Below are positions 5,813-35,775 of a DNA stretch of 54,355 bases, piece after piece. Numbering within the stretch: position 1 is the first letter of the stretch; every line of letters starts with the position of its first letter. This stretch comes from Chloroflexota bacterium (GTDB lineage Bacteria; Chloroflexota; Limnocylindria; P2-11E): the NCBI GenBank assembly GCA_016183435.1, contig JACPEQ010000011.1:1-54355 (forward strand). Reading direction: 5' to 3'. The translations under genes were made by a program, and so were the position numbers. The notes under the pieces are model-generated. The model worked only from the letters and a program-made list of their open reading frames with translations. It had not been told where the DNA came from and searched no databases.

Positions 5813-7288
5813 GTGAAGTTCCGTGCCGTACGCGCGTCCGATCTCGGTAACGTGGACGCGCTCATCGTCCCGGTGTTCGAGTCCGGCGAGGCGCCGGCCG
5901 TGGTCTCGAGACCCGTGCGCTCCGCCGTCGAGCGCGTCCGCCGCGAGACGGGCAGGCACAAGCTCTACACCGCGACGACGCACATCGGTGGGGAGCGCGG
6001 CGTCCCGACGTGCCTCGTGATCGTCGACGCCGGCGACAGGGGCGACTGGAGCGCCGAGCGCGCCCGCAACGTCGCGGCCGCCGGCGTGAAGAGCCTGTGG
6101 CGCTCGACGGCGAAACGGGCGGCGGTCGTCCTCAGCGCCGACGGCATCGGCGCCGATCGCGCCGCGCAGGCCACGGTCGAGGGCGCGATCTATTCGATGT
6201 GGAGACCTGAGGTGCACCGTTCGGCCGCGGCCGACCGCAAGCTGCCGCCCCTGGCGAGCCTGGCGCTCGTCACGACCGAGAAGGCGGACCTCAAGGCGGC
6301 GATCCGCCGGGGCGAGGCTGTCGGCGACGCCGTGAACGTCGCGCGCCGGCTCGCGAACGAGCCGGCCAACAAGATGACCCCGACGATCCTCGCGGACGAG
6401 GCACGGGTGCTCGCGAAGGAGCACGGCATCGAGATCGACGTCTTCGACCGCGAGCGCTGCCGCAAACTCGGCATGAACTCGTACCTCTCGGTCGCACAGG
6501 GGAGCCACGAGCCGCCCCGCTTCATCGTCATGCGCTGGCGCGGGCGCGGCGGGCGCGGCTACGACATCGCGTTCGTGGGGAAGGGGATCACGTTCGACTC
6601 CGGTGGGATCTCCATCAAGGGGGCCGAGGGCCTGCACCACATGAAGGCGGACATGACCGGGGCGGCGTCGGTGGTGGCCGCGATCGCCGCCGTGGCGCGC
6701 CTGGGCACGAAGGCCAACGTCCTCGCCGTCGCCCCGTGCACCGAGAACCTGCCAGGCGGCGGCGCGACGAAGCCGGGCGACGTGTTCACGTCGATGAGCG
6801 GCCGCACCGTCGAGGTGATCAACACCGACGCGGAGGGGCGGCTCGTGCTCGTGGACGGCGTCACCTACGCGCAGCGCGAGGGCGCGCGCCGCGTCGTCGA
6901 CGTGGCCACGCTCACCGGCGCGATCCAGATCGCGCTCGGCAACCACTTCACCGGGCTGTTCGGGCGGCCCGACGGCTTCGTGCAGGAGGTCCGCGCCGCC
7001 GGGACGGCCGCGGGCGATCGGCTCTGGCCGATGCCGCTCACAGACGAGTACCGCGAGGAGATCCGCAGCGAGATCGCCGACATCGCGAACAGCGCCGGGC
7101 GCGAGGGCGGCGCGATCAAGGGGGCGGCGTTCATCGACTCCGTCGTCGACGACGGCACCGAGTGGGCACACCTCGACATCGCCAGCACCTACTGGTCGGA
7201 CAAGGATCGCCCGCAGTCGCCGAAGGGACCGCAGGGTCCCGCCGTCCGCACGCTCATCGAGCTGGCGGCGCGTGCGGCGCGCGAGTAA
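5813..7288 (+). CDS. pepA: Leucyl aminopeptidase (M17)
   Basis: [15 protein letters not shown] and [10 protein letters not shown] motifs. GTG 5813 is preceded by gggaggg at SD distance. The ORF also opens at TTG 5792. Confidence 0.9.
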
Positions 7289-17680: not shown

Positions 17681-18783
17681 GGCGCGTTCTCGTCGTCGAG
17701 GATCTCCCCCAGGTCGCGGAGCACCTCAAGGGTCTGCTCGGGCGCGACCAGGAGATGCAGATCACCGGTGTCCAGACGCAGCCGGACGCGGCCGTCGCGC
17801 AGGCGACGACCGAGAAGCCGGAGATCGTCCTCGTCGACTACTTCCTGGGCGGCAAGGAGAACATCGGCCTCCAGGTCGCGAAGCGCATCCGCGCCGGTTC
17901 GCCGGGGACGCGGATCGTGATGATCACCGTGCCGCAGAAGCCGGTCACCCCCCGCCCGGAAGAGGGTATCGACGCGGTGTTCGTCCTGCCGGGCGGAGCG
18001 AACGAGATGGTGCAGGTCCTCGGCGGCGAGAAGCCGGGCGGGGGGGCCAAGGGCGGCGCGACCGCCGTGTACTCGCCCAAGGGCGGGTCGGGGAAGACGC
18101 TCATCGCCGTGAACCTCGCGACGGTCCTTCGCCGCCAGGGATCCTCCGTCGCCGTGATGGACGGGGTGATGCAGTTCGGCTCGGTGCGCCATCTCGTGCA
18201 GGTGCCTCCCGACGCGCGTTCGATCGTCGACCTGCCTCCGGGTGGCGCGATGAAGGGGGCCATGCCCGAGGCGCTGTGGGAAGGCCCGGCGGGCGTGCAC
18301 TATCTGCTCGCGCCGCCGCGGCCGGAGCAGGCTGACCTCGTCGCGGCCTCGGAGGTCCAGACCGCGGTCACGATCCTCTCGGAGACGCATGACCACGTCG
18401 TCGTCGACACGCCCAGCCGGCTCGGTGACGACGCGCTGGGGATCCTCGACGCGGCGAAGACCATCCTCCTCGTAGTGACGTACAGCGGGCCGGCGATCGC
18501 CACGGCGCGGGCGGCGATCGAGACGTTCGACATGCTCGGCTATCGGAAGCAGAAGCCGATCCTCGCGGTGATCTCGCAGTCGGACGAGACCGGCGGGCTG
18601 ACGCGCGGCGCCCTGGAGCATGCCCTCGGCCTGCCGGTCGCGGTGGAGATCCCGACGGATCGCAAGCTCGTCGCCGAATCACTGGCGCGGCAGGAGCCGT
18701 TCACGGTGGCGGCGCCGACGGCACCGATCTCCCAGGCGTTCGGCGCGCTCGCCACCGCGCTCGTCGCACAGCAGCGGAAGTGA
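17677..18783 (+). CDS. Response-regulator receiver domain fused to a CpaE/TadZ-like ParA/MinD-family ATPase
   Basis: ATGA overlap. Receiver fold with RVLVVEDL and IVLVDY, followed by the deviant Walker A YSPKGGSGKTLIAVNLA. Confidence 0.8.
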   Translation: MRRVLVVEDLPQVAEHLKGLLGRDQEMQITGVQTQPDAAVAQATTEKPEIVLVDYFLGGKENIGLQVAKRIRAGSPGTRIVMITVPQKPVTPRPEEGIDAVFVLPGGANEMVQVLGGEKPGGGAKGGATAVYSPKGGSGKTLIAVNLATVLRRQGSSVAVMDGVMQFGSVRHLVQVPPDARSIVDLPPGGAMKGAMPEALWEGPAGVHYLLAPPRPEQADLVAASEVQTAVTILSETHDHVVVDTPSRLGDDALGILDAAKTILLVVTYSGPAIATARAAIETFDMLGYRKQKPILAVISQSDETGGLTRGALEHALGLPVAVEIPTDRKLVAESLARQEPFTVAAPTAPISQAFGALATALVAQQRK

Positions 18784-19601
18784 GCGGGCCCGACCGACCC
18801 ATCGGGGTCTTCGACTCCGGTGTCGGCGGCCTCACGGTCCTCAAGGAGCTTCGCCGCCAGCTGCCGAACGAGTCGACGGTCTACCTCGGGGACGAGGCGC
18901 GCATGCCCTACGGCGAGCGCGAGGCCGCGGAGGTCGTGGAATTCACACGCAAAGCCGTGCAATGGTTCGAGCGCGAAGCACAGCCAAAGTTGATCCTCAT
19001 CGCGTGTAACACGGCGACGGCCGTCGCGCTCGAGATAGTGCGTGAGGAGTCATCCGTGCCGGTGATCGGCGTGATCCGTCCAGGTGCTTCGGCGGCGCTG
19101 ACCGCCACCTCCAGGCGAGCAGTTGGCGTCTTGGCCACGCGATTGACCGTGCGATCGGGCGCCTATTTCCGGGCACTGCGGGATCTCGACCCTCTGATCG
19201 ACGTCATCCAGCAGCCGGCGCCGAAGCTCGTGCCGCTGATCGAGGCCGGCGGCGCGCGGTCGGACGAGGCGCGCGCCGCGGTCCGTGAATACATCGCGCC
19301 GATGCTGAGCGAAGGCGCAGTAGTGGCGCCAGGTGTCGACACGATCCTTCTCGGCTGCACGCACTATCCGTTGGTAAGGTGGGCCATCGAGCAGATCACG
19401 GGCCCGGTCGTGCGCGTCGTCGACTCCGCGACCACGACAGCGCTTGCGGTGCGAGAGGTCCTGGACTCGCATCGTCTGCGTGCGACGGGAGACACGCCGA
19501 CCCAACGCGTTCACGCGACCGGCTCCTTGGACACGTTCGTGCAAGTCGCGCGCGCAATGTTCGGTCAGGCGACTGAGGTACATCCTGCGACTTTGTCCTA
19601 A
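18780..19601 (+). CDS. murI: Glutamate racemase (compositionally mosaic)
   Basis: IGVFDSGVGGLTVLKEL, ACNTA and GCTHYP catalytic blocks with a GTGA overlap. By hand count, GC drops from about 71% (18781-18880) to about 58% (18941-19040). Confidence 0.9.
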   Translation: MSGPDRPIGVFDSGVGGLTVLKELRRQLPNESTVYLGDEARMPYGEREAAEVVEFTRKAVQWFEREAQPKLILIACNTATAVALEIVREESSVPVIGVIRPGASAALTATSRRAVGVLATRLTVRSGAYFRALRDLDPLIDVIQQPAPKLVPLIEAGGARSDEARAAVREYIAPMLSEGAVVAPGVDTILLGCTHYPLVRWAIEQITGPVVRVVDSATTTALAVREVLDSHRLRATGDTPTQRVHATGSLDTFVQVARAMFGQATEVHPATLS

Positions 19602-20087
19602 GGCTCCCGCCTTCGAGATACTGGTTTCCCGAACTGGTGCGCCGTCGTCCTGGCTTCGGAGAAATTCCGAAGCTCAGGCCTTTCCACTCTCAGGTGGTCC
19701 ACGAAAGCCGGGTCAACTCCACTCCTATGCGGCCTCGCCTGTAGCGCGCCACACGCCGCCAGCTTCTGAGAACTGCTCCTCCTTGGTCCGGACATCGCGG
19801 GAACGATCGCATTGACAGCCAGGACAGTGGTAGTCCGCCGCCCGTACTCCGCTTGGCTGCGCTTGGCGCCAGAGCTCGAGGTTCTCCGGCCGGTTGTCGT
19901 CCCGACGCCCATTCTTGTGATGCACGCGCTCATTGGGCTCGAGGTAGCGTCCCTGGATGGAGTGGCAAGCGCCCGCGAGCGCGCTCGCGTTCTACGAACG
20001 CCTTGGTTTGAAGGGTGATGCCTGTCCCGATCCAGGTCACCCGTTCTTCGAGATCGACTTCGCTAGGACCGACAAGTCCCGTCCAGC
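19602..20087. mobile_element. Low-GC insertion remnant carrying a decayed HNH endonuclease gene
   Basis: About 59% GC (19601-19700, hand count). It lies between intact murI and a displaced native murI 3' fragment. Hairpin gcttcgga-gaaat-tccgaagc at about 19653-19675. Confidence 0.55.
19725..20060 (-). pseudogene. HNH endonuclease, truncated and frameshifted
   Basis: Minus-strand translation ACHSIQGRYLEPNERVHHKNGRRDDNRPENLELWRQAQPSG matches the HNH core. The frame is closed by TAG at 19992-19994 with no start, and the upstream part (..TKAFVERERARG) is in another frame. Confidence 0.7.
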
Positions 20088-20306
20088 GTGAAGCCGCCAG
20101 GTGCGCCGAAGCTCGTCCCGCTCATCGAGGCCGTCGGTGCGAGGTCGGAAGAGGCTCGCGAGGTGCTGGACTCGCACGGCCTGCGCGCGCTCGGCGGCAT
20201 GGCGACACATGAGGTGTTCGCCACGGGGGAAGGCCGCCGCTTCCGGGAGATCGCGAAGACGATGTTCCGCGAGGACGTGATCGTGAACGAGGCGGTCCTC
20301 GCGTGA
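20088..20306 (+). pseudogene. Displaced native 3' fragment of murI with an internal deletion
   Basis: APKLVPLIEAVGARSEEAR joined directly to EVLDSHGLRA..ATG....F..IAKTMF parallels murI residues APKLVPLIEAGGARSDEAR ... EVLDSHRLRA..ATG. It has host-like high GC, and its TGA overlaps the ychF GTG (GTGA). Confidence 0.75.
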
Positions 20307-21403
20307 ACGTCGTCACCACGATCACCGGGCTGCCGTTCGTCGGGAAGACGACGCTGTTCGACCTTCTCACCGGGCAGCACGTCGCGACCGGGACGTTCGC
20401 CGGCGCCGAGGCGGAGACGAACGTCGGCGTGGCCAAGGTCCCCGACGAGCGGCTCGACAGGCTCGTCCCGCTCTTCAAGCCGAAGAAGACCACCCACGCC
20501 GAGATCACCTATCGCGACCTCGGCCTCGCGAAGGGCGGGGGAGAGATCAGCACGAAGAAGCTCGGCGACCTACGCACGTCCGACGCGCTGCTGCACGTGG
20601 TGCGGGCGTTCCGTGATCCGACCGTGCCGCATCCGGAGGGCTCGGTCGATCCCGTGCGCGACCTCGCGACGCTCGATCTCGAGCTCGTGGTGTCCGACCA
20701 CTCCGTCGTCGAACGGCGGATCGAGCGGATCGAGCCGGAGATCCGCGGCGCGCGCGCGGGAGGGGAGCGCGAGGCGAAGGAGCGCGAGCGGGACCTGCTG
20801 CGGCGGTGCCTCGCGGCGCTCGACGCGGAGACGCCGCTACGCGAGCTCGACCTCGAGGCGGAGGAGCTGAAGGTACTGCGCGGCTACCGCTTCCTGACGC
20901 TCATGCCGCAGCTGGTCGTCGTGAACCTGGATGAGGCCGACGTCGCCGCTCCGGACGCGACGCTCGCGCCGGTCCGTGCGGCGGCGTCGACGCACCGCTC
21001 GACCGGGGTCGTCCACGTCTGCGCGAAGCTCGAGGCCGAGATCGCCGAGCTGTCACCGGAGGAGGCGACGGCCTTCCGCGAAGAGGCCGGCCTGCACGAG
21101 CCGGCGCTCGACCGCGTGCTGCGCGCGACGTACGACCTGCTCGGGCTCATCTCCTTCTTCACGGTCGGCCCCGACGAATGCCGCGCGTGGACGGTCCGCA
21201 AGGGCGCCACGGCCCCTGAAGCGGCCGGGGCGATCCACTCGGACCTCGAGCGCGGCTTCATCCGCGCGGAGGTCACGAAGTGGGACGACATGCTCCGTGC
21301 CGGCTCCGAGGCGGAGGCGAAGAAACACGCGCTGACGAGAACGATCGGCAAAGACGCGGTCGTGAACGACGGCGAGATCGTCCACGTGCTGTTCAACGTG
21401 TGA
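20303..21403 (+). CDS. ychF: YchF-type (Obg family) GTPase/ATPase, divergent
   Basis: P-loop GLPFVGKTTLFDLLTG and the C-terminal DUF933/TGS-like block ECRAWTVRKGATAPEAAGAIHSDLERGFIRAEV. Confidence 0.85.
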   Translation: MNVVTTITGLPFVGKTTLFDLLTGQHVATGTFAGAEAETNVGVAKVPDERLDRLVPLFKPKKTTHAEITYRDLGLAKGGGEISTKKLGDLRTSDALLHVVRAFRDPTVPHPEGSVDPVRDLATLDLELVVSDHSVVERRIERIEPEIRGARAGGEREAKERERDLLRRCLAALDAETPLRELDLEAEELKVLRGYRFLTLMPQLVVVNLDEADVAAPDATLAPVRAAASTHRSTGVVHVCAKLEAEIAELSPEEATAFREEAGLHEPALDRVLRATYDLLGLISFFTVGPDECRAWTVRKGATAPEAAGAIHSDLERGFIRAEVTKWDDMLRAGSEAEAKKHALTRTIGKDAVVNDGEIVHVLFNV

Positions 21404-24717: not shown

Positions 24718-24850
24718 GCTGCCCCCTTGGGCCCCCTTCACTTCGGCGCGGAGCCTAGCGGCCCTCCGTACGCTCGGGATACGGGCGAACGGTCGTTCGA
24801 GCGAGCGCGCCGACCGCGCGGGCCTGATGCTTCGCCTCGTGCGGGACCGG

Positions 24851-30029: not shown

Positions 30030-30818
30030 CTACGCGACCTGGTCGCGGAGCTGGACCTCTTCGATCTTGATCCGCGCCTCCACAGGTGCGCGCAGCTCGA
30101 GGCGGCGCGACGCCTGTGAGAGCGCGAAGCAGATGACGAAGTAGATGACGGCGATATAGAGGAAGACCTCGAGCGGATTGAAGAACTGCGTGTAAATGAC
30201 GCGGCCCTGGCGCACGAGCTCGAACACGCCGATGGTCGCGACGAGCGAGGTGTCCTTGATCACCGTCGTGAGCTGGCCCATCATCGCCGGGACCATGAGC
30301 CGCAGCGCCTGCGGCAGGACCACGAAGCGCATCGACCCGACGTAGCTCAGGCCGAGCGCCGAGGCGGCCTCGGTCTGGCCCTTCGGCAGCGCGGTGATCC
30401 CGGCGCGGATGATCTCGGCGAGGACCGCGGAGGTGTACAGCGACAGGCCGAGGACGCCCGCCCAGAAGCGCGACAGCTCGAAGTCCTCGCCGAAGATCGG
30501 GGTCATGATCGGCCGGAAGAGCGCCGTCCCCTTGATGCCGAAGTACACGATCAGCAGCAGGACGGGCAGCGCCCGGATCGTCTCGATGTACAGGATCGAC
30601 GGCCAGCGGATCCACGGCCGCGTGGAGAGGCGCCCGAGCGCGAAGAGCAGCCCGACGACGAACGAGAGCAGGACCGATGCGACGGACAGCTTGAGCGTCT
30701 CGCCGAGGCCCTCCCCGAAGAACCGGACGATCGCGGGATCGACGAACAGGTACCACGTGTCGCAGCGGATGCCGGGCGTGGCGCAGACGGCGGCACGGAG
30801 GAGATCGAACGGGTTCAT
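30030..30818 (-). CDS. Amino-acid ABC transporter permease
   Basis: Polar amino-acid (His/Glu/Gln/Arg) permease blocks EIIRAGITALPKGQTEAASALGLS. Confidence 0.85.
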   Translation of the reverse strand: MNPFDLLRAAVCATPGIRCDTWYLFVDPAIVRFFGEGLGETLKLSVASVLLSFVVGLLFALGRLSTRPWIRWPSILYIETIRALPVLLLIVYFGIKGTALFRPIMTPIFGEDFELSRFWAGVLGLSLYTSAVLAEIIRAGITALPKGQTEAASALGLSYVGSMRFVVLPQALRLMVPAMMGQLTTVIKDTSLVATIGVFELVRQGRVIYTQFFNPLEVFLYIAVIYFVICFALSQASRRLELRAPVEARIKIEEVQLRDQVA

Positions 30819-31486
30819 CGGGCGACCAGCAGCCTTCGCTCGAGCCAGTTCACTCCGAGGCTCGCCGGGATCGTGAGGACGAGGTAGAGGAGGACGACGG
30901 CGCCGAACGCCTCCTCGGTGCGGAACGTCCGTGACTCCACGATCTCGGCGGCCTGCAGCAACTCCGCGACGCCGATCGTGGAGGCGAGCGACGTGTTCTT
31001 GATGAGGGCGATCCCGATGTTCCCGAGCGGCGGGATCGTCGCGCGGAAGGTCTGCGGCAGCTGCACGTAGCGGAGGGTCTGCACGTACGACAGGCCGAGC
31101 GATCGGGCCGCCTCGATCTGACCCTTGTCGACGCCGAGGAGGCCGCCGCGGATGACCTCCGCCACGTACGCGCCGTGGTACAGCGCCATCCCCGCCGCCC
31201 CCGCGCGGAAGATCGACTCGAACGTGTCCGTCGTCCAGAACCGGAAGCCGAGGGCGCCGAGGCCGAGGAACAGGAAGAAGAGCTGCACCAGGAGCGGCGT
31301 GTTCCGGAAGAACTCGACGTAGGCGACCCCGACCCAGCGCAGCGGAGGGATGGGGGAGATGCGGAACAGCGCGATGAGAGTACCGGCGGCGAGCGCGCCG
31401 ATCGACCCGAGGACCGACAGCTGGACCGTGAGGAACAGGCCGGTGAAGAAGAGGTCGGGGAACTCGAACATGATCGCGCCAGGCAT
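30815..31486 (-). CDS. Amino-acid ABC transporter permease
   Basis: EVIRGGLLGVDKGQIEAARSLGLS block. ATG 31486 is preceded by ggaagga; the track ORF starts 60 nt further upstream. Confidence 0.85.
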   Translation of the reverse strand: MPGAIMFEFPDLFFTGLFLTVQLSVLGSIGALAAGTLIALFRISPIPPLRWVGVAYVEFFRNTPLLVQLFFLFLGLGALGFRFWTTDTFESIFRAGAAGMALYHGAYVAEVIRGGLLGVDKGQIEAARSLGLSYVQTLRYVQLPQTFRATIPPLGNIGIALIKNTSLASTIGVAELLQAAEIVESRTFRTEEAFGAVVLLYLVLTIPASLGVNWLERRLLVAR

Positions 31487-31502
31487 CGTCAGGTCCTTCC
31501 GT

Positions 31503-31590
31503 CCCCCACGCGCGCAGACCGAGGCGCGCACGCCGAGGTCGGGCACGTGGGCCTGAGGGAGGGCTTTGCCCGACCGAGGGTCGGAACAGG
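31503..31590 (+). repeat. Dispersed repeat family, copy E1
   Basis: cgcgcgcagaccgaggcgcgc ... cccgaccgagggtcggaacagg shares its 5' and 3' ends with the copies at 36742, 43466 and 47750. Confidence 0.75.
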
Positions 31591-31593
31591 AAC

Positions 31594-31618
31594 GGGGGCC
31601 GGCATCACGCCGGCCCCC
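31594..31618 (-). promoter_or_regulatory. Intercistronic 10-bp GC hairpin between the binding-protein and permease genes
   Basis: Perfect stem gggggccggc/gccggccccc with a 5-nt loop, 24 nt downstream of the binding-protein stop codon. No U tract, so more likely an mRNA stabiliser or attenuator than a full terminator. Confidence 0.5.
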
Positions 31619-31642
31619 GCCTCTGGAACTTCGCTCTCAGCG

Positions 31643-32566
31643 CTAGCCGCCCGGACGGCCCTTGTCGTGGGGTCCGTCCTTGACGTCGCCGGACACCGGG
31701 GTGATGTGCTTCTTGTAGAGCGCGGCCCAGCGGCCGTCGGCGATCATGTCGGCGATCACCTTGTTGAGGAACGGGGCGAACCCGGTCCGGCCCTTGGCGA
31801 TGCCGATGCCGTACGGCTCGTCGGAGAAGTAGCCGCCCACGATCTTCGTGTTCGGGTCCTGCTTCACGAGGCCGAAGAGGATCGTCTCGTCGGTCGAGAC
31901 GGCGTCGGCCTGGCCCTGCTGGAGCGCGATGAGGCACGGCGGGTAGCTGTCGAGCAGCAGGAGCTTGGCGTCCTTGTTCTTGGCCGCGATGTTCTTCTCG
32001 CTCGTCGAGCCCTTGGCCGTGCAGACCGTCTTGCCCTTGAGGTCCGCGACCTCCTTGATCGTCGTGTCCGACTTCTTCACGAGGATCTTCTGGCCCGTGC
32101 GGAAGTACACGGTGCTGAAGTCGATCTCCTTGAGGCGCTCCTCGTTGACGGTGAACGTGGCAGCGACGATGTCGGCCTTGTTGTCCTTCAGCGTCGGGAT
32201 GCGGGTCGCGGAGACGACCGGCACGTACTCGATGAACTTGTCCGGGTCGGCCTTCCCCTCGGCCCCGAAGATGGCGATGGCGAACTCGCGCACGACGTCG
32301 ACGTCGAAGCCTTCGAACTTGCAGGTGGCGGGGTTCTTCAGCCCGAACGGCACGTTGTCCTCGCGCGTGCCGACCTTGAGCTTGCCCTTGGTCTGGATGG
32401 CGTACTGGTACGACGCGAGCTCGAACTTGGGCTTGGCGGCCGCCGTCGCGGCCGGGGCCGCGGTCGGCGACGGCTGTGTGGGAGCACCACCTCCGCCGCC
32501 GCACGCCGCCGCGAGGACGGCGACGGCCGCGCCGAGGGCGGTGATGCGTACGAGGATGCTGCGCAT
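31643..32566 (-). CDS. Amino-acid ABC transporter substrate-binding lipoprotein
   Basis: Signal peptide with lipobox LAAACGG and a family-3 solute-binding fold (DVDVVREFA, STDETILFG). Confidence 0.85.
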   Translation of the reverse strand: MRSILVRITALGAAVAVLAAACGGGGGAPTQPSPTAAPAATAAAKPKFELASYQYAIQTKGKLKVGTREDNVPFGLKNPATCKFEGFDVDVVREFAIAIFGAEGKADPDKFIEYVPVVSATRIPTLKDNKADIVAATFTVNEERLKEIDFSTVYFRTGQKILVKKSDTTIKEVADLKGKTVCTAKGSTSEKNIAAKNKDAKLLLLDSYPPCLIALQQGQADAVSTDETILFGLVKQDPNTKIVGGYFSDEPYGIGIAKGRTGFAPFLNKVIADMIADGRWAALYKKHITPVSGDVKDGPHDKGRPGG

Positions 32567-32593
32567 GGACCCCTCCTTGCCCTTGCCTACTAC

Positions 32594-33328
32594 CTAGTGG
32601 TGGATGACCTTGCTCAAGAACTGCCGCGCCCGCTCCTCGCGGGCCCCGGCGAAGAACTCCCCGGTCGGCGAGTCCTCAATGATGCGCCCTGCGTCCATGA
32701 ACACAACACGGTCGGACGCCTCCCGGGCGAAGCCGATCTCGTGCGTCACGACGACCATCGTCATGCCCTCTTGGGCCAACTGGCGCATCACGTCGAGCAC
32801 CTCCCGGATCATCTCGGCGTCGAGGGCGCTCGTCGGCTCGTCGAACAGCATGATCTTGGGGTCCATGGCGAGCGCGCGCGCGATCGCGACCCGCTGCTGT
32901 TGGCCTCCCGACAGGCGCACCGGGAGCTGGTCGGCCTTCTCGGGGATGCCCACCTTCGCGAGCAGCTCCTGCGCCCGCTTGCGCGAGGCGGCAGCGTTCA
33001 GGCCCTTCACCTTCCGCGGCGCCAGCATGATGTTCTCGACCGCGGTGAGGTGGGGGAACAGGTTGAACTGCTGGAACACCATCCCGACCCGGCGCCGCAG
33101 CGCGTTCACGTCCGCCTTTGGATCGTGCACCGGCATGCCGTCGACGACGAGGCTGCCGCGCTGGATGGGCTCGAGCCGGTCGATGGTGCGGATCAGCGTG
33201 CTCTTCCCGGACCCGGACGGGCCGATGACGACGACGACCTCACCCTCGTCGACCTTCAGGTCGATCCCGTTCAGGACGTGAAGCGGCCCGAACCACTTGT
33301 GGACGTCGTGGAACTCGATGATCGGCAT
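32594..33328 (-). CDS. Amino-acid ABC transporter ATP-binding protein
   Basis: Walker A GPSGSGKST, signature LSGGQQQRVAIARAL and Walker B MLFDEPTSALD. Confidence 0.92.
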   Translation of the reverse strand: MPIIEFHDVHKWFGPLHVLNGIDLKVDEGEVVVVIGPSGSGKSTLIRTIDRLEPIQRGSLVVDGMPVHDPKADVNALRRRVGMVFQQFNLFPHLTAVENIMLAPRKVKGLNAAASRKRAQELLAKVGIPEKADQLPVRLSGGQQQRVAIARALAMDPKIMLFDEPTSALDAEMIREVLDVMRQLAQEGMTMVVVTHEIGFAREASDRVVFMDAGRIIEDSPTGEFFAGAREERARQFLSKVIHH

Positions 33329-34667: not shown

Positions 34668-34739
34668 AGCGGGGTAGTGGAGTGGCACCACGGAGGGCTC
34701 ATAACCCTCAGACCGGGCGTTCGAATCGCCCCCCCGCAA
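34668..34739 (+). tRNA. Initiator tRNA-fMet (anticodon CAT), CCA not encoded
   Basis: Manual cloverleaf: AGCGGGG TA GTGG AGTGGCA CCAC G GAGGG CTCATAA CCCTC AGACC GGGCG TTCGAAT CGCCC CCCCGCA A. It has a 1:72 mismatch and three G:C pairs closing the anticodon stem, and the 3' half resembles E. coli tRNA-fMet (..CCCCCGCAA). Confidence 0.88.
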
Positions 34740-34751
34740 CAGCGAGACGAA

Positions 34752-34800
34752 GTCCTTCAGTTGTGGACCATGGAGGACCGGACTGGAGGGCTTTTCTTTG
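34752..34800 (+). terminator. Probable intrinsic terminator after tRNA-fMet
   Basis: ccttcagt ... actggagg stem (one G:U) followed by gcttttctttg. Confidence 0.5.
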
Positions 34801-35181
34801 CCATACAAGGATCGGGACCGCCGAAGGGAATACGGCCGCGAGTGGATCAGGAGGAACGGGGAGAGAGCGCGTGCGGCGATGCGTCGTTGGCGCGCGCGCC
34901 ATCCTGAGGCACACAACGCTGAGTCACGTCTCTTCTACTCGCGACACTCAGACCGGATCCTCGCTCGTTCGAGCGCGTACCACAGGGCGAATCTGCACGT
35001 ACTGCACAAGCACAAGCTCACCGAGGACGAGTACCGCGAGCGGCGACGCAGGGAGGGCCTCTACGTCCGCCCGCGCGTGCGGCTTCCCCTTCGCTGGGTG
35101 GTGGACCGGCTCGATGACACCGGCTGGCTGGGGGAGACCTCGGGCTCCTTCTCCGCCTCGCTCATGAGCTTCGAGGGATAG
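34798..35181 (+). pseudogene. Phage-type recombination endonuclease VII-like gene fragment (catalytic part lost)
   Basis: MPYKDRDRRREYGREWIRRN...HKLTEDEYRERRRREG resembles the N-terminal part of phage Endo VII/HNH-associated proteins. The expected Cys-rich continuation after ..QGG is absent, and the tail overlaps the XRE gene on the other strand. Confidence 0.4.
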
Positions 35182-35360
35182 ACCCCGAGGGCTTCGGCGA
35201 TCTGCGAGAGCGCGTCGACCGAGATGTTCCGGTGACCGCGCTCCACGAGCGAGATGTACGTGCGGTGCAGCCCCGACTCCTCGGCGAGCGCCTCCTGTGA
35301 CAGTCCGACGTTCTCGCGGTACTTCCTGATCACGCGGCCGACGCGCGGAGCCAGCGCCAC
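35061..35360 (-). CDS. XRE-family helix-turn-helix transcriptional regulator
   Basis: IRKYRENVGLSQEALAEESGLHRTYISLVERGHRNISVDALSQIAEALGV is a classic Cro/C1-type HTH. Confidence 0.8.
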   Translation of the reverse strand: MALAPRVGRVIRKYRENVGLSQEALAEESGLHRTYISLVERGHRNISVDALSQIAEALGVYPSKLMSEAEKEPEVSPSQPVSSSRSTTQRRGSRTRGRT

Positions 35361-35407
35361 AGCGTGAGGGTCGCGGTGGCCGTTACACCGGGTCTACAGA
35401 CCATAGT

Positions 35408-35662
35408 GTGCAAGCGCATGCCGATCATCGCAGCGTGCGGTACAGCATCAGGAGCGCAGGCGCCTGGGGCGACCTCGCGGACGTGCGGCATGACGAGGCG
35501 GACCGGCTCGGCTTCGCGCTCGCCATCTTCGGGGCCGAGGCGACGCTGCGCTGTGTCGCGCGGGTCGGCACGGTGACGCTGTACGACCGGCGCGGGCGCG
35601 AGCTGCTGGCCTACGACGCCGAGCGGCTGTCGATGCTCGGTGGCCCGTTCTTCGAGAGGTAG
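35408..35662 (+). CDS. Hypothetical protein divergent from the XRE regulator
   Basis: 84-aa ORF with host-like third-position GC from about 35470 onward and an alternative GTG start at 35483. I recognise no family. Confidence 0.35.
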   Translation: MQAHADHRSVRYSIRSAGAWGDLADVRHDEADRLGFALAIFGAEATLRCVARVGTVTLYDRRGRELLAYDAERLSMLGGPFFER

Positions 35663-35699
35663 CCCGAGTTCTACGATAGGATCGACTTCCCGAGCACTC

Positions 35700-35771
35700 G
35701 GCTGGGTAGCTCAGTGGCAGAGCAGCGGCGTCATAATCCGCTGGCCGTGGGTTCGAATCCCACCCCAGCCA
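35700..35771 (+). tRNA. tRNA with anticodon CAT (elongator Met or Ile2/lysidine type), atypical anticodon arm
   Basis: GGCTGGG TA GCTC AGTGGCA GAGC A GCGGC GTCATAA TCCGC TGGCC GTGGG TTCGAAT CCCAC CCCAGCC A. It has a C31:U39 mismatch and G32, and ends 4 nt before the tilS ATG. Confidence 0.8.
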
Positions 35772-35775
35772 CTCG

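What the first reader, a model, noticed from the sequence alone, without database searches (positions are those of the whole stretch)
18935..20306. Mosaic murI: low-GC replacement 3' part plus a decayed HNH endonuclease, with the native murI 3' end displaced
- GC by hand count drops from about 71% (18781-18880) to about 58% (18941-19040) inside murI. It stays at about 59% (19601-19700) through a 486-nt spacer.
- That spacer carries a start-less, frameshifted HNH endonuclease remnant on the minus strand (..GRYLEPNERVHHKNGRRDDNRPENLELW..).
- A high-GC fragment follows at 20088-20306. It encodes APKLVPLIEAVGARSEEAR fused to EVLDSHGLRA...MFREDVIVNEAVLA. This is a diverged second copy of the murI C-terminus with an internal deletion. 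Its TGA overlaps the ychF GTG, the same coupling style as the rest of the operon.

The simplest reading is that an HNH-bearing mobile DNA carrying its own murI 3' portion recombined into murI. That kept the essential gene intact while displacing the resident end, which has since decayed along with the endonuclease.
Basis: partly seen in the sequence, partly recalled or inferred. Interest (0 to 1): 0.7.

Follow-up and report, generated by a model that had tools for sequence, protein, structure and literature searches.

The report
Endonuclease cassette scar in murI
A soil Chloroflexota genome had the back two-thirds of its essential cell-wall gene murI overwritten by foreign DNA that travels with a phage-type HNH endonuclease gene, leaving the old gene end and a truncated endonuclease as a scar. 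Related genomes carry the intact cassette at the same spot.

Summary

**What is in the window**
- murI (18780-19601) is a chimera. Up to about 18927 it matches its closest orthologous relative, L001, at about 90% nt. After that identity falls to about 60% and GC3 falls from 0.94 to 0.77.
- 18936-20087 is the lowest-GC stretch of its length in the 54-kb contig.
- Downstream lie four gene fragments:
  - the last 77 codons of an HNH_3 endonuclease on the minus strand, 19725-19958. It is truncated, not frameshifted.
  - the last 44 codons of an unrelated GNAT acetyltransferase gene, 19957-20091. This is a new finding.
  - two murI pieces, 20103-20160 and 20157-20306.
- The last murI piece is 88% identical to L001's murI end. 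It is therefore the displaced resident end, and its TGA still overlaps the ychF GTG.

**What relatives show**
- Five independent metagenome contigs carry an HNH gene, or in L251 only its 3' tail at the contig end, between murI and ychF.
- None of 78 species-representative genomes does.
- All HNH-bearing loci with measurable flanks show the same low-GC3 murI 3' part, and those alleles cluster in a tree despite distant hosts.

**Reading and rating**
The best reading is a free-standing homing-type endonuclease cassette that co-converts murI, here caught in an aberrant and degenerating state. It is a new variant of a known kind, of moderate interest.

The parts
18780..18927 (+). murI 5' part (codons 1 to about 49), resident type
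   Evidence: GC3 is 0.94, like the flanking genes. Identity to the closest host relative L001 is 89-96% in 18850-18924 and collapses to about 60% after 18925.
18880..18927 (+). Left junction zone: codons for GDEARMPYGER, the likely site of the homologous crossover
   Evidence: This is the most conserved 24-mer of murI among 88 HNH-less alleles (mean column conservation 0.94). It is unchanged at its conserved columns in the HNH-linked alleles that cover it. The alignment shows the switch from resident-like to cassette-like bases at 18923-18928.
18928..19601 (+). murI 3' part (codons about 50-273 plus stop), foreign cassette type; now the working end of the gene
   Evidence: GC3 is 0.77. The closest DNA match is the HNH-bearing L002 (82% for 18936-19175). 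Cassette-like informative sites outnumber resident-like ones 23 to 6 between 18928 and 19202. It carries both catalytic-cysteine motifs, ACNTA 19002-19016 and GCTHYP 19353-19370. The whole protein scores Pfam Asp_Glu_race at E=6.7e-23. It clusters with other HNH-linked alleles.
19602..19724 (.). Spacer between the convergent murI and HNH stop codons
   Evidence: No similarity to any held locus. No Rfam, promoter or terminator signal.
19725..19958 (-). 3' fragment of an HNH_3 endonuclease gene (last 77 codons plus stop); the 5' three-quarters, start and promoter are missing
   Evidence: Pfam HNH_3 at E=3.4e-7. One-frame tblastn match to residues 230-299 of 354 in the L002 protein at 71% aa. 84% nt to L002 and L008. 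The family-invariant residues of this part and the '...W-x5/6-AA*' tail are kept. Against L002, 20 of 48 aligned codons differ synonymously and 2 non-synonymously.
19957..20091 (+). 3' fragment (44 codons plus stop) of a GNAT acetyltransferase gene, abutting the HNH fragment
   Evidence: phmmer against 1.84 billion representatives gave 24 hits, best E=5e-10. Identity is 58-69% to residues about 113-149 of 156-162-aa proteins, which score Pfam Acetyltransf_1. tblastn places the match at 19954-20064.
20103..20160 (+). murI fragment A (codons 146-165, APKLVPLIEAVGARSEEAR)
   Evidence: 88% identical over 58 nt to 19218-19275. 17 of 19 aa are identical. Too short to assign to resident or donor.
20157..20306 (+). 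murI fragment B (codons about 224-273 plus stop): the displaced resident 3' end, with its TGA overlapping the ychF GTG
   Evidence: 88% nt to L001's murI end, the same level as the flanking genes; the next best locus is 75%. 92% aa to P0062 (the L001 protein), against 38% aa to the functional C-terminus over the aligned tail columns (40% in the BLASTP alignment). 12 codons differ synonymously and 4 non-synonymously.
20088..20306 (+). 72-codon open frame made of fragments A and B; its GTG overlaps the GNAT-fragment TGA and its TGA overlaps the ychF GTG
   Evidence: ORF list and sequence. No Pfam hit and no catalytic cysteines.
20303..21403 (+). ychF (GTPase), resident; the right flank of the locus
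   Evidence: Pfam YchF-GTPase_C at E=1.4e-33. GC3 is 0.93. 89% nt to L001.

Best explanation
The locus is the scar of an invasion by a free-standing, phage-type HNH (HNH_3) homing-style endonuclease cassette. In related Candidatus Limnocylindria (Chloroflexota) this cassette occupies the murI-ychF junction.

**The cassette.** It is a lower-GC3 unit. It consists of the last two-thirds of murI plus an antisense HNH gene. In relatives it also includes a GAAC-N4-GTTC box upstream of the HNH start.

**Entry.** In this genome the left end entered by homologous crossover in the most conserved 24-mer of murI, around 18880-18927. The foreign segment therefore now supplies codons about 50-273 of an intact chimeric glutamate racemase. 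The right end did not resolve in ychF as it did in the clean relatives. It was joined illegitimately inside the resident murI near codon 146. As a result the resident 3' end was displaced rather than replaced.

**Later deletions.** One deletion removed the HNH 5' three-quarters together with the 5' part of a divergently oriented GNAT gene. Another removed 171 nt in frame from the displaced end.

**Present state.** murI works, the endonuclease is dead, and a 72-codon relic frame still overlaps the ychF start.

**Shown.** The mosaic, the orthology of the remnant, the truncations, and the existence, composition and phylogenetic incongruence of the cassette in relatives.

**Inferred.** That spread is driven by endonuclease cleavage (homing), the order of events, the illegitimate-joining mechanism, and SOS control.
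For: **The mosaic**
- Identity to the nearest host relative L001 is 89.6% in the upstream gene and 89-96% up to 18924. It is about 60% from 18925, then 88% again in the remnant and 89% in ychF.
- GC3 runs 0.94, 0.77, 0.88 and 0.93 across these parts.
- 18936-20087 is the global GC minimum of the contig.

**The cassette in relatives**
- L002, L008, L007 and L252 carry full-length HNH genes between murI and ychF. L251 shows the HNH C-terminal tail at its contig end.
- Across 89 murI loci, the four then-known HNH-between loci are the four extreme outliers in GC3 deficit of the murI 3' part. Their values are -0.14 to -0.22, against -0.04 to +0.07 for the rest (sd 0.045).
- HNH genes themselves have GC3 of about 0.69-0.72, against about 0.92 for host genes.

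**A prediction that was fulfilled**
- In an NJ tree of MurI residues 53-273 (120 sequences), the window, L002's, L007's and P0042's proteins form a 4-member clade.
- P0042's contig L251 then proved to have the low-GC3 3' part, no ychF overlap, and an antisense HNH-type tail.

**Horizontal movement**
- The flank protein is 91% identical between the window and L001, but the MurI C-part only 72%.
- The same figures are 89% and 76% for L003 and L251.
- L007's flank is only 64% identical to the window's.

**Locus specificity and sporadic presence**
- 12 of the 18 closest HNH relatives in JGI metagenomes lie just downstream of ychF.
- Of 78 species-representative genomes, none has an HNH gene between murI and ychF and 2 have one after ychF.

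**Phage-type family**
- PHROG HNH families score at E=1e-34.
- At least 458 relatives occur in IMG/VR.

**Recent disabling**
- Differences in the HNH remnant and in the displaced murI end are mostly synonymous: 20 vs 2 and 12 vs 4 codons.
Against: - No cleavage activity, target site or immunity of HNH-bearing alleles has been shown. My attempt to infer a target from allele differences gave nothing inside murI.
- The cassettes differ from one another by about 25% nt, more than the host flanks do. Recent transfer between the sampled lineages is therefore not demonstrated. The tree clustering could be helped by shared low-GC amino-acid bias.
- The displaced-end architecture and the GNAT fragment are seen only in this window.
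- GNAT homologues elsewhere are not linked to HNH or murI.
- The window is a metagenome-assembled contig, and read support could not be checked.
Confidence: 0.6

Rival explanations
1. Passive cassette exchange. The HNH gene is cargo, for example an SOS-induced nuclease or defence gene in a variable spot. It and the adjacent murI segment are swapped between genomes by ordinary homologous recombination through conserved flanks, after transformation or another transfer route. The endonuclease makes no break that drives the event.
For: - All the comparative evidence fits this equally well: the mosaic, GC3, tree incongruence and sporadic presence.
- The left junction lies simply in the most conserved stretch of the gene, where any recombination between diverged alleles must cross over.
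- The murI-ychF junction also accepts unrelated insertions. L094 has a small membrane-protein ORF there, and L007 has a P-loop gene next to the HNH gene.
Against: - The gene belongs to the HNH_3 and PHROG families typical of phage free-standing homing endonucleases.
- Divergent family members (50-70% aa) recur at exactly two positions flanking ychF. A site-specific nuclease predicts this; random cargo does not.
- Tandem double copies and truncated copies match the known life cycle of homing endonuclease genes.
Confidence: 0.27
2. Assembly artefact. The contig is a chimera of co-existing strains (HNH-bearing and HNH-less), and the duplicated murI pieces were stitched together by the assembler.
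For: - The window is a MAG contig, and its exact MurI protein is on no other record.
- Related contigs often break at this locus. L251 ends 86 nt after murI, and L086 ends at murI codon 150.
- The left junction lies in a block identical among strains.
Against: - The longest exact word shared by the functional murI and the remnant is 14 nt, too short to mislead a k-mer assembler.
- The HNH/GNAT junction and the fragment A/fragment B junction share no repeats.
- The remnant is physically followed by a ychF of the same (L001-like) lineage as the upstream gene.
- The core pattern (low-GC3 murI 3' part plus HNH) is reproduced in five independent assemblies from other samples.
Confidence: 0.05
3. 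Site-specific integrative element. A small island integrated into murI through an integrase, using an attachment site that carries a replacement 3' end, as tRNA- and gene-end-targeting islands do.
For: The gross architecture is the same: gene 5' part, then a replacement 3' end, then cargo, then the displaced 3' end. A 58-nt 88% direct repeat (19218-19275 and 20103-20160) could be read as attL and attR.
Against: - There is no integrase or recombinase anywhere in the about 1.2-kb insert or in the intact cassettes of relatives.
- The foreign tract starts about 290 nt upstream of the repeat.
- Clean relatives have no displaced end and no repeats.
Confidence: 0.02
4. Local tandem duplication of murI followed by divergence and decay of the downstream copy, with an HNH gene later landing between the copies.
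For: Two murI-derived stretches lie in tandem on the same strand.
Against: - The functional 3' part is not a diverged copy of the remnant. It is 38-40% aa identical at the C-terminus, while the remnant is 92% identical to the orthologue P0062.
- The functional part has foreign composition and groups with HNH-linked alleles of distant hosts.
Confidence: 0.02

Closest known systems
Free-standing homing endonucleases of T-even phages (SegF, SegG, SegB, MobE): 'intronless homing' with co-conversion and marker exclusion (review PMC2988022; PMC2790892)
   Same: - An endonuclease gene outside any intron or intein, in an intergenic spot next to conserved essential genes.
- Sporadic presence among close relatives.
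- Inheritance of the gene together with a tract of the neighbouring gene.
- An HNH-family catalytic domain, as in MobE.
   Different: - Here the host is a bacterial chromosome (a housekeeping operon of uncultivated Chloroflexota), not a phage.
- The co-travelling tract has its own composition (GC3 about 0.75 against 0.92).
- Relatives carry a GAAC-N4-GTTC box at the gene's 5' end.
- Activity is untested.
- In the window the event left a displaced gene end, which simple homing does not produce.
Nuclease genes at boundaries of genetic exchange, or 'HEG islands', in phages (Barth, Dunham and Seed, PMC10055350)
   Same: Homing endonuclease genes (HEGs) cluster beside essential genes and mark the edge of recombined tracts. 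HEG proteins have repetitive DNA-binding modules; here these are 2-6 zinc-ribbon repeats.
   Different: That work describes phage genomes, and its families (T5orf172, IPA-HNH) are not shown to be the same as this one.
Homology-facilitated illegitimate recombination (one homologous anchor, one illegitimate end; PMC3240628)
   Same: The window's insert has a homologous left junction in a conserved block and a non-homologous right junction. It also carries a deletion of recipient DNA (resident murI codons about 50-145).
   Different: The mechanism is inferred from the product only. Junction microhomology could not be established, and the route of DNA entry is unknown.
Displaced 'orphan' 3' modules behind Rhs, CdiA and T6SS effector genes (for example PMC5361080)
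   Same: A new 3' end plus an accompanying gene is recombined onto a conserved 5' part. This pushes the old 3' end downstream as a start-less relic.
   Different: Those are polymorphic toxin systems under diversifying selection with immunity genes. Here the gene is an essential housekeeping enzyme and the companion is a nuclease.
LexA-regulated HNH genes of actinobacteria (REP13E12 family of Mycobacterium tuberculosis); recalled from memory, not checked here
   Same: HNH-domain genes preceded by the Gram-positive-type SOS box GAAC-N4-GTTC. The motif is documented in PMC3323433.
   Different: A different HNH subfamily and architecture, multi-copy repeats rather than a locus-specific single gene. 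The window itself has lost this region.

Membership tests
HNH endonuclease, HNH_3 (PF13392) | Profile match above the curated cut-off over the beta-beta-alpha-metal core (HH...N...N) | tested here: met
   The remnant scores 30.2 bits against a cut-off of 24.8, E=3.4e-7. VHHKNGRRDDNRPENLELW and the downstream invariant P, G, R, D, H and C-x2-C-x-C residues are kept.
HNH endonuclease, HNH_3 (PF13392) | Complete, expressible gene (start codon, N-terminal DNA-binding part) | tested here: not met
   Only residues equivalent to 230-299 of 354 remain. Nothing upstream of 19958 matches any family member. The window copy is a dead fragment.
Free-standing homing endonuclease gene | Nuclease gene not embedded in an intron or intein, lying between host genes | tested here: met
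   In L002, L008 and L252 it is intergenic between murI and ychF. No Rfam intron family occurs in the window region.
Free-standing homing endonuclease gene | Presence/absence polymorphism at the same locus among related genomes | tested here: met
   Six loci have the gene or a remnant between murI and ychF. None of 78 species-representative loci does; 2 of the 78, plus about 13 metagenome contigs, have it just after ychF.
Free-standing homing endonuclease gene | Co-conversion of flanking host sequence with the endonuclease gene | tested here: met
   The murI 3' part of HNH-linked loci are GC3 outliers. They form a clade, and they are incongruent with the host flanks.
Free-standing homing endonuclease gene | Site-specific cleavage of the endonuclease-less allele, with immunity of the carrier allele | not testable with these tools
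   This needs a biochemical assay. The sequence contrast between allele classes gave no candidate site inside murI.
Glutamate racemase MurI (Asp_Glu_race, PF01177) | Full-length profile match and both catalytic cysteine motifs | tested here: met
   82 bits, E=6.7e-23. ACNTA is at codon 75 and GCTHYP at codon 192. About 80% identity to many 270-285-aa homologues. The 72-codon relic has neither motif and no Pfam hit.
Homology-facilitated illegitimate recombination product | One junction in homology, the other without, with short microhomology at the illegitimate joint | tested here: inconclusive
   The left junction lies in the most conserved 24-mer. The right junction lies between 20092 and 20102, with no donor sequence available to define microhomology.
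Integrase-mediated island with a replacement gene end | Tyrosine or serine recombinase gene and att repeats bounding the insert | tested here: not met
   No recombinase ORF or domain in the insert or in the intact relatives. The foreign tract begins about 290 nt before the only repeat.
LexA (SOS) regulated gene, Gram-positive-type box | GAAC-N4-GTTC palindrome in the promoter region | tested here: not met
   The window remnant lacks the 5' region. The only box in the window is at 24787, which is unrelated. Relatives do have it: about 18 of the 25 boxes in 915 kb of held loci lie within about 180 nt of an HNH ORF start. Binding by LexA was not tested.

The most novel reading that the evidence does not exclude
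A lineage of phage-type HNH homing endonucleases has colonised the chromosome of an uncultivated soil Chloroflexota class. It cycles persistently through the two ends of ychF. It is switched on by the SOS response through a LexA box. It carries with it a private, presumably cleavage-immune, low-GC allele of the last two-thirds of the essential gene murI. Under this reading an essential cell-wall enzyme is repeatedly rewritten by a selfish nuclease. The window would preserve a rare aborted homing event: one homologous end, one end-joined end near murI codon 146. That could mark the actual break site.
Probability: 0.35. Interest if true: 0.7.

Novelty: new variant of a known kind. Interest (0 to 1): 0.55.

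Why it matters
- Free-standing homing endonucleases and their co-conversion of neighbouring genes are textbook for T-even and other phages. The papers retrieved in my literature searches described them in phages, not in bacterial housekeeping operons.
- Here, six independent contigs show such a gene tied to the murI-ychF junction. It comes with a compositionally distinct piece of an essential gene travelling alongside. This would make selfish nucleases a driver of allele turnover in core bacterial genes.
- The window adds the degenerate, mis-resolved stage. It shows how an essential gene stays intact while its old end is left as a relic, and it offers a candidate break position to test.
- The GAAC-N4-GTTC boxes suggest damage-induced expression. 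That would time cleavage to when recombination repair is active.
- For annotation: the 66-aa 'hypothetical protein' and the 72-codon ORF in this contig are gene fragments, and murI here is a chimera.

Tried and rejected
- **RNA elements.** An Rfam scan of 18000-21000 at E<=1 and of the whole window at gathering scores found no intron or other RNA element at the locus, only two tRNAs elsewhere.
- **Promoters and terminators.** The scan of 18600-20500 found nothing above shuffled expectation.
- **The 123-nt spacer 19602-19724.** It matched nothing.
- **Exact-protein look-up of the window's MurI.** It found no other contig.
- **Inferring the endonuclease target.** I contrasted 88 HNH-less with 6 HNH-linked alleles. 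The only signal was the trivial loss of the ychF start after the murI stop.
- **Do HNH genes downstream of ychF drag a low-GC3 ychF 3' end in the same way?** Only a weak shift appeared (mean -0.037 against -0.004), not outliers.
- **Is the GNAT gene normally linked to HNH or murI?** Two homologues sit in unrelated contexts, so the origin of that fragment stays open.
- **A closer full-length relative of the window's own HNH type.** The search returned mostly short HNH_3 ORFs and nothing closer than L002 and L008.
- **A third murI patch (codons 96-102) just upstream of fragment A.** This was not supported once gap penalties were considered.
- **Tandem duplication, integrase island and assembly chimera.** All were considered and given low weight (see rival explanations).
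Full report
**What is there**

The window is a contig of a Chloroflexota MAG of the Candidatus Limnocylindria group (source names, genome titles). murI occupies 18780-19601 (273 codons, Pfam Asp_Glu_race E=6.7e-23) and ychF 20303-21403. A response-regulator/ParA-like gene ends at 18783. In this clade these three genes form a conserved block.

By codon position, GC3 is:
- 0.94 in murI 18780-18935
- 0.77 in 18936-19601
- 0.88 in 20088-20306
- 0.91-0.93 in the flanking genes

The 1152 nt from 18936 to 20087 is the lowest-GC window of that length in the whole 54-kb contig. Its GC is 0.645 against a mean of 0.719 (sd 0.023), and the minimum begins at 18931.

**Anatomy of the 701 nt between the murI stop and the ychF start**

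1. **19725-19958, minus strand.** These are the last 77 codons and the stop of an HNH_3 endonuclease.
   - It scores above the Pfam cut-off.
   - It aligns in a single frame to residues 230-299 of a 354-aa relative.
   - It keeps the family's invariant residues and its characteristic C-terminal tail.
   - Nothing upstream of 19958 belongs to the family, so the gene is 5'-truncated, not frameshifted.
2. **19957-20091, plus strand.** These are the last 44 codons and the stop of a GNAT acetyltransferase gene.
   - Identity is 58-69% to residues about 113-149 of 156-162-aa Acetyltransf_1 proteins.
   - The two fragments are the 3' parts of genes that would have been divergently oriented. One deletion across their 5' halves explains both truncations (inference).
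3. **20103-20160.** This copies murI codons 146-165, at 88% nt to 19218-19275.
4. **20157-20306.** This copies murI codons about 224-273 with the stop. Its TGA overlaps the ychF GTG.

Pieces 3 and 4 are fused in frame, with 57 codons missing between them. Together they form a 72-codon ORF.

**Which end is resident?**

The closest available host relative is the JGI contig L001. It is 89.6% nt identical in the upstream gene and 89% across the remnant and ychF.
- Piece 4 is 88% identical to L001's murI end, and the next best locus is 75%.
- At protein level piece 4 is 92% identical to the L001 protein P0062. It is only 38% identical to the window's own functional C-terminus over the aligned tail columns, or 40% in the pairwise BLASTP alignment.
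- Its differences from L001 are mostly synonymous (12 codons against 4). It diverged as a working gene end and has decayed little since.

The functional murI behaves differently. It tracks L001 at 89-96% up to 18924 and then falls to about 60%.
- L001 and L086 share a 3-nt indel just after the junction that the window lacks.
- The best DNA match for 18936-19175 is L002 at 82%.
- The switch falls in the codons for GDEARMPYGER. This is the most conserved 24-mer of the gene among 88 HNH-less alleles, and it is unchanged at its conserved columns in the HNH-linked alleles that cover it. It is the natural place for a crossover between diverged sequences.
- Both catalytic-cysteine motifs lie in the foreign part, and the chimera is full length.

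**Relatives**

In 78 loci from GTDB species representatives the order is response regulator, murI, ychF, with murI and ychF overlapping or directly adjacent. None has anything between them, and two carry an HNH gene just downstream of ychF.

Five metagenome contigs from other samples carry an HNH gene, or part of one, between murI and ychF:

| Locus | What it shows |
|---|---|
| L002 | 354-aa intact HNH gene, antisense, cleanly between the murI stop and the ychF start; no displaced end |
| L008 | 301-aa intact HNH gene, same clean arrangement |
| L007 | HNH gene followed by a P-loop gene |
| L252 | Full-length HNH gene |
| L251 | HNH tail at the contig end |

**The murI 3' part travels with the HNH gene**

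- Across 89 murI loci I computed GC3 of the 3' part minus GC3 of the flanking genes. The window, L002, L008 and L007 are the four most extreme values (-0.14 to -0.22). All others lie between -0.04 and +0.07 (sd 0.045).
- The HNH genes have GC3 of about 0.69-0.72.
- An NJ tree of MurI residues 53-273 from 120 homologues puts the window with L002's and L007's proteins and one more, P0042.
- I took this as a prediction and looked up P0042's contig, L251. It has the same low-GC3 3' part (0.64-0.74), no ychF at the murI stop, and an antisense '...AWLNARAA*' matching the family's C-terminal tail.
- Host flanks disagree with this grouping:
  - The flank protein is 91% identical between the window and L001, while the MurI C-part is 72%.
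  - The figures are 89% and 76% for L003 and L251.
  - L007's flank is only 64% identical to the window's.
- The cassette has therefore entered at least three host lineages.
- Caveat: the cassettes differ from one another by about 25% nt, more than some host flanks do. The transfers are not recent, and shared composition may help the clustering.

**What kind of gene is the HNH?**

- It matches Pfam HNH_3 and PHROG 'HNH endonuclease' families at E down to 1e-34. It has at least 458 relatives in IMG/VR viral contigs.
- Its N-terminal part consists of two to six repeats of a C-x2-C...(F/Y)CS-x2-C zinc-ribbon unit.
- Of the 18 closest relatives in JGI metagenomes, 12 lie convergent just after ychF, several as tandem doubles.
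- The family is therefore tied to the two ends of ychF, is sporadically present, is compositionally foreign, and often occurs as truncated copies.
- This is the behaviour described for free-standing homing endonuclease genes and their co-conversion tracts in phages (PMC2988022, PMC2790892, PMC10055350).
- Cleavage, target and immunity are untested, so endonuclease-driven spread is an inference. Ordinary recombination of a variable cassette through conserved flanks explains the same comparative data, and I give it about one chance in four.

**How the window's version arose (inferred)**

A clean homing or replacement event would have replaced the resident murI end, as in L002 and L008. Here the resident end survives downstream.
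- The left end must therefore have recombined homologously, at about 18880-18927.
- The right end was joined without homology inside the resident murI near codon 146, between 20092 and 20102. Resident codons about 50-145 were lost.
- This is the product expected of homology-facilitated illegitimate recombination (PMC3240628), or of one-ended break repair finished by end joining.
- Later deletions removed the HNH and GNAT 5' parts and 171 nt of the relic.
- The HNH fragment differs from L002 at 20 synonymous and 2 non-synonymous codons out of 48 aligned. It was under selection for most of that divergence, so it was probably disabled recently.

Other explanations fare poorly:
- **Assembly chimera.** It is unlikely. 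The two murI copies share at most 14 identical bases, and the core pattern recurs in independent assemblies. Reads could not be checked.
- **Integrase island.** It is contradicted.
- **Tandem duplication.** It is contradicted by the same calls.

**Present function**

- murI is an intact chimera.
- The HNH and GNAT pieces are dead.
- The 72-codon frame has no racemase motifs. It keeps the stop-start overlap with ychF, and its own GTG overlaps the GNAT fragment's TGA. Whether this preserves translational coupling of ychF is speculation.
- No promoter, terminator or RNA family was detected.

**Novelty and score**

The mechanism class is known: a free-standing homing endonuclease, co-conversion, illegitimate joining and an orphaned gene end. 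Three things are new here:
- the setting in a bacterial housekeeping operon of an uncultivated phylum-level group;
- a compositionally distinct piece of an essential gene that travels with the nuclease;
- the SOS-type boxes in relatives.

I rate it a new variant of a known kind, with interest 0.55.

Noticed in passing
L002 1856-1867; L008 919-930; L007 209-220; L252 219-230; L039 6670; L072 6944; L090 897; L092 1347; L095 295; L096 109; L097 260; L099 749; also L111-L114, L121, L132, L168: A perfect GAAC-N4-GTTC palindrome, usually TAGAAC-N4-GTTCTA, sits at the 5' end of the HNH genes. This is the Gram-positive-type LexA box (PMC3323433). About 18 of the 25 such boxes in 915 kb of held loci lie within about 180 nt of an HNH ORF start. 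That suggests SOS-controlled expression. The window's remnant has lost this region.
   Followed up: partly
Alignment A1; e.g. L002 769-1830 minus strand, residues 1-190: The N-terminal part of the HNH family is a variable array of 2-6 repeats of a zinc-ribbon unit, C-x2-C-G-x2-F...(Q/R)(R/K)(F/Y)CS-x2-CA. It gives weak Pfam hits to zf-FCS and NinG. It looks like a modular DNA-binding domain.
   Followed up: partly
L006 2261-3385; L072 about 5997-6770; L094 227-1360; L095, L096, L097, L099: Downstream of ychF the HNH family often occurs as two HNH domains in tandem, either one long ORF or two adjacent genes, convergent with ychF.
   Followed up: no
L002 1850-1906; L008 (reverse complement) just upstream of ychF: A mini-ORF, M-I-E-(Q/R)-M-F... 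of 18 codons, is encoded across the LexA-type box. Its TAG overlaps the ychF GTG, so the cassette re-creates a stop-start overlap for ychF.
   Followed up: no
L086 (DASWDY010000202.1), contig end at murI codon 150; same MAG also holds L082: A contig of a close relative (upstream gene 83% nt, 86% aa) stops inside murI at about codon 150. The window's displaced murI fragment begins at almost the same position (codon 146). The same MAG bin has a second, more distant murI locus. This could be an assembly break caused by a similar polymorphism, or coincidence.
   Followed up: no
L094 about 2490-2834 (between murI and ychF): A different insertion at the same junction: a small, very hydrophobic ORF on the opposite strand, in a locus that also has a tandem HNH after ychF.
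   Followed up: no
L007 1-262 (reverse complement: after the HNH start): In this HNH-bearing locus the gene beyond the HNH start is not ychF. It is a P-loop protein (MGRPTLVIVSGPPGSGKTTLAR...), so the insert there carries extra cargo.
   Followed up: no
one search hit list (P0266-P0384): Public metagenomes hold many very short HNH_3 ORFs (57-135 aa) related to the window's remnant. At least one (P0266, called as 113 aa) is really part of a full-length gene in L252, so gene calls for this family are unreliable. Truncated copies may nevertheless be common.
   Followed up: partly
window 34668-35772: Two different tRNA genes with anticodon CAT lie 1 kb apart. They bracket one of the other low-GC spots of the contig, which holds an XRE-type helix-turn-helix gene (35064-35360, minus strand; HTH_3 E=1e-17) and ORFs without family matches. 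This may be a small inserted islet.
   Followed up: partly
window 30815-33328: Another lower-GC stretch (about 0.64-0.66) corresponds to what looks, from the ORF translations, like an ABC transporter operon: a candidate permease, a substrate-binding protein and an ATPase with Walker A and signature motifs. No family search was run. It appears ordinary.
   Followed up: partly
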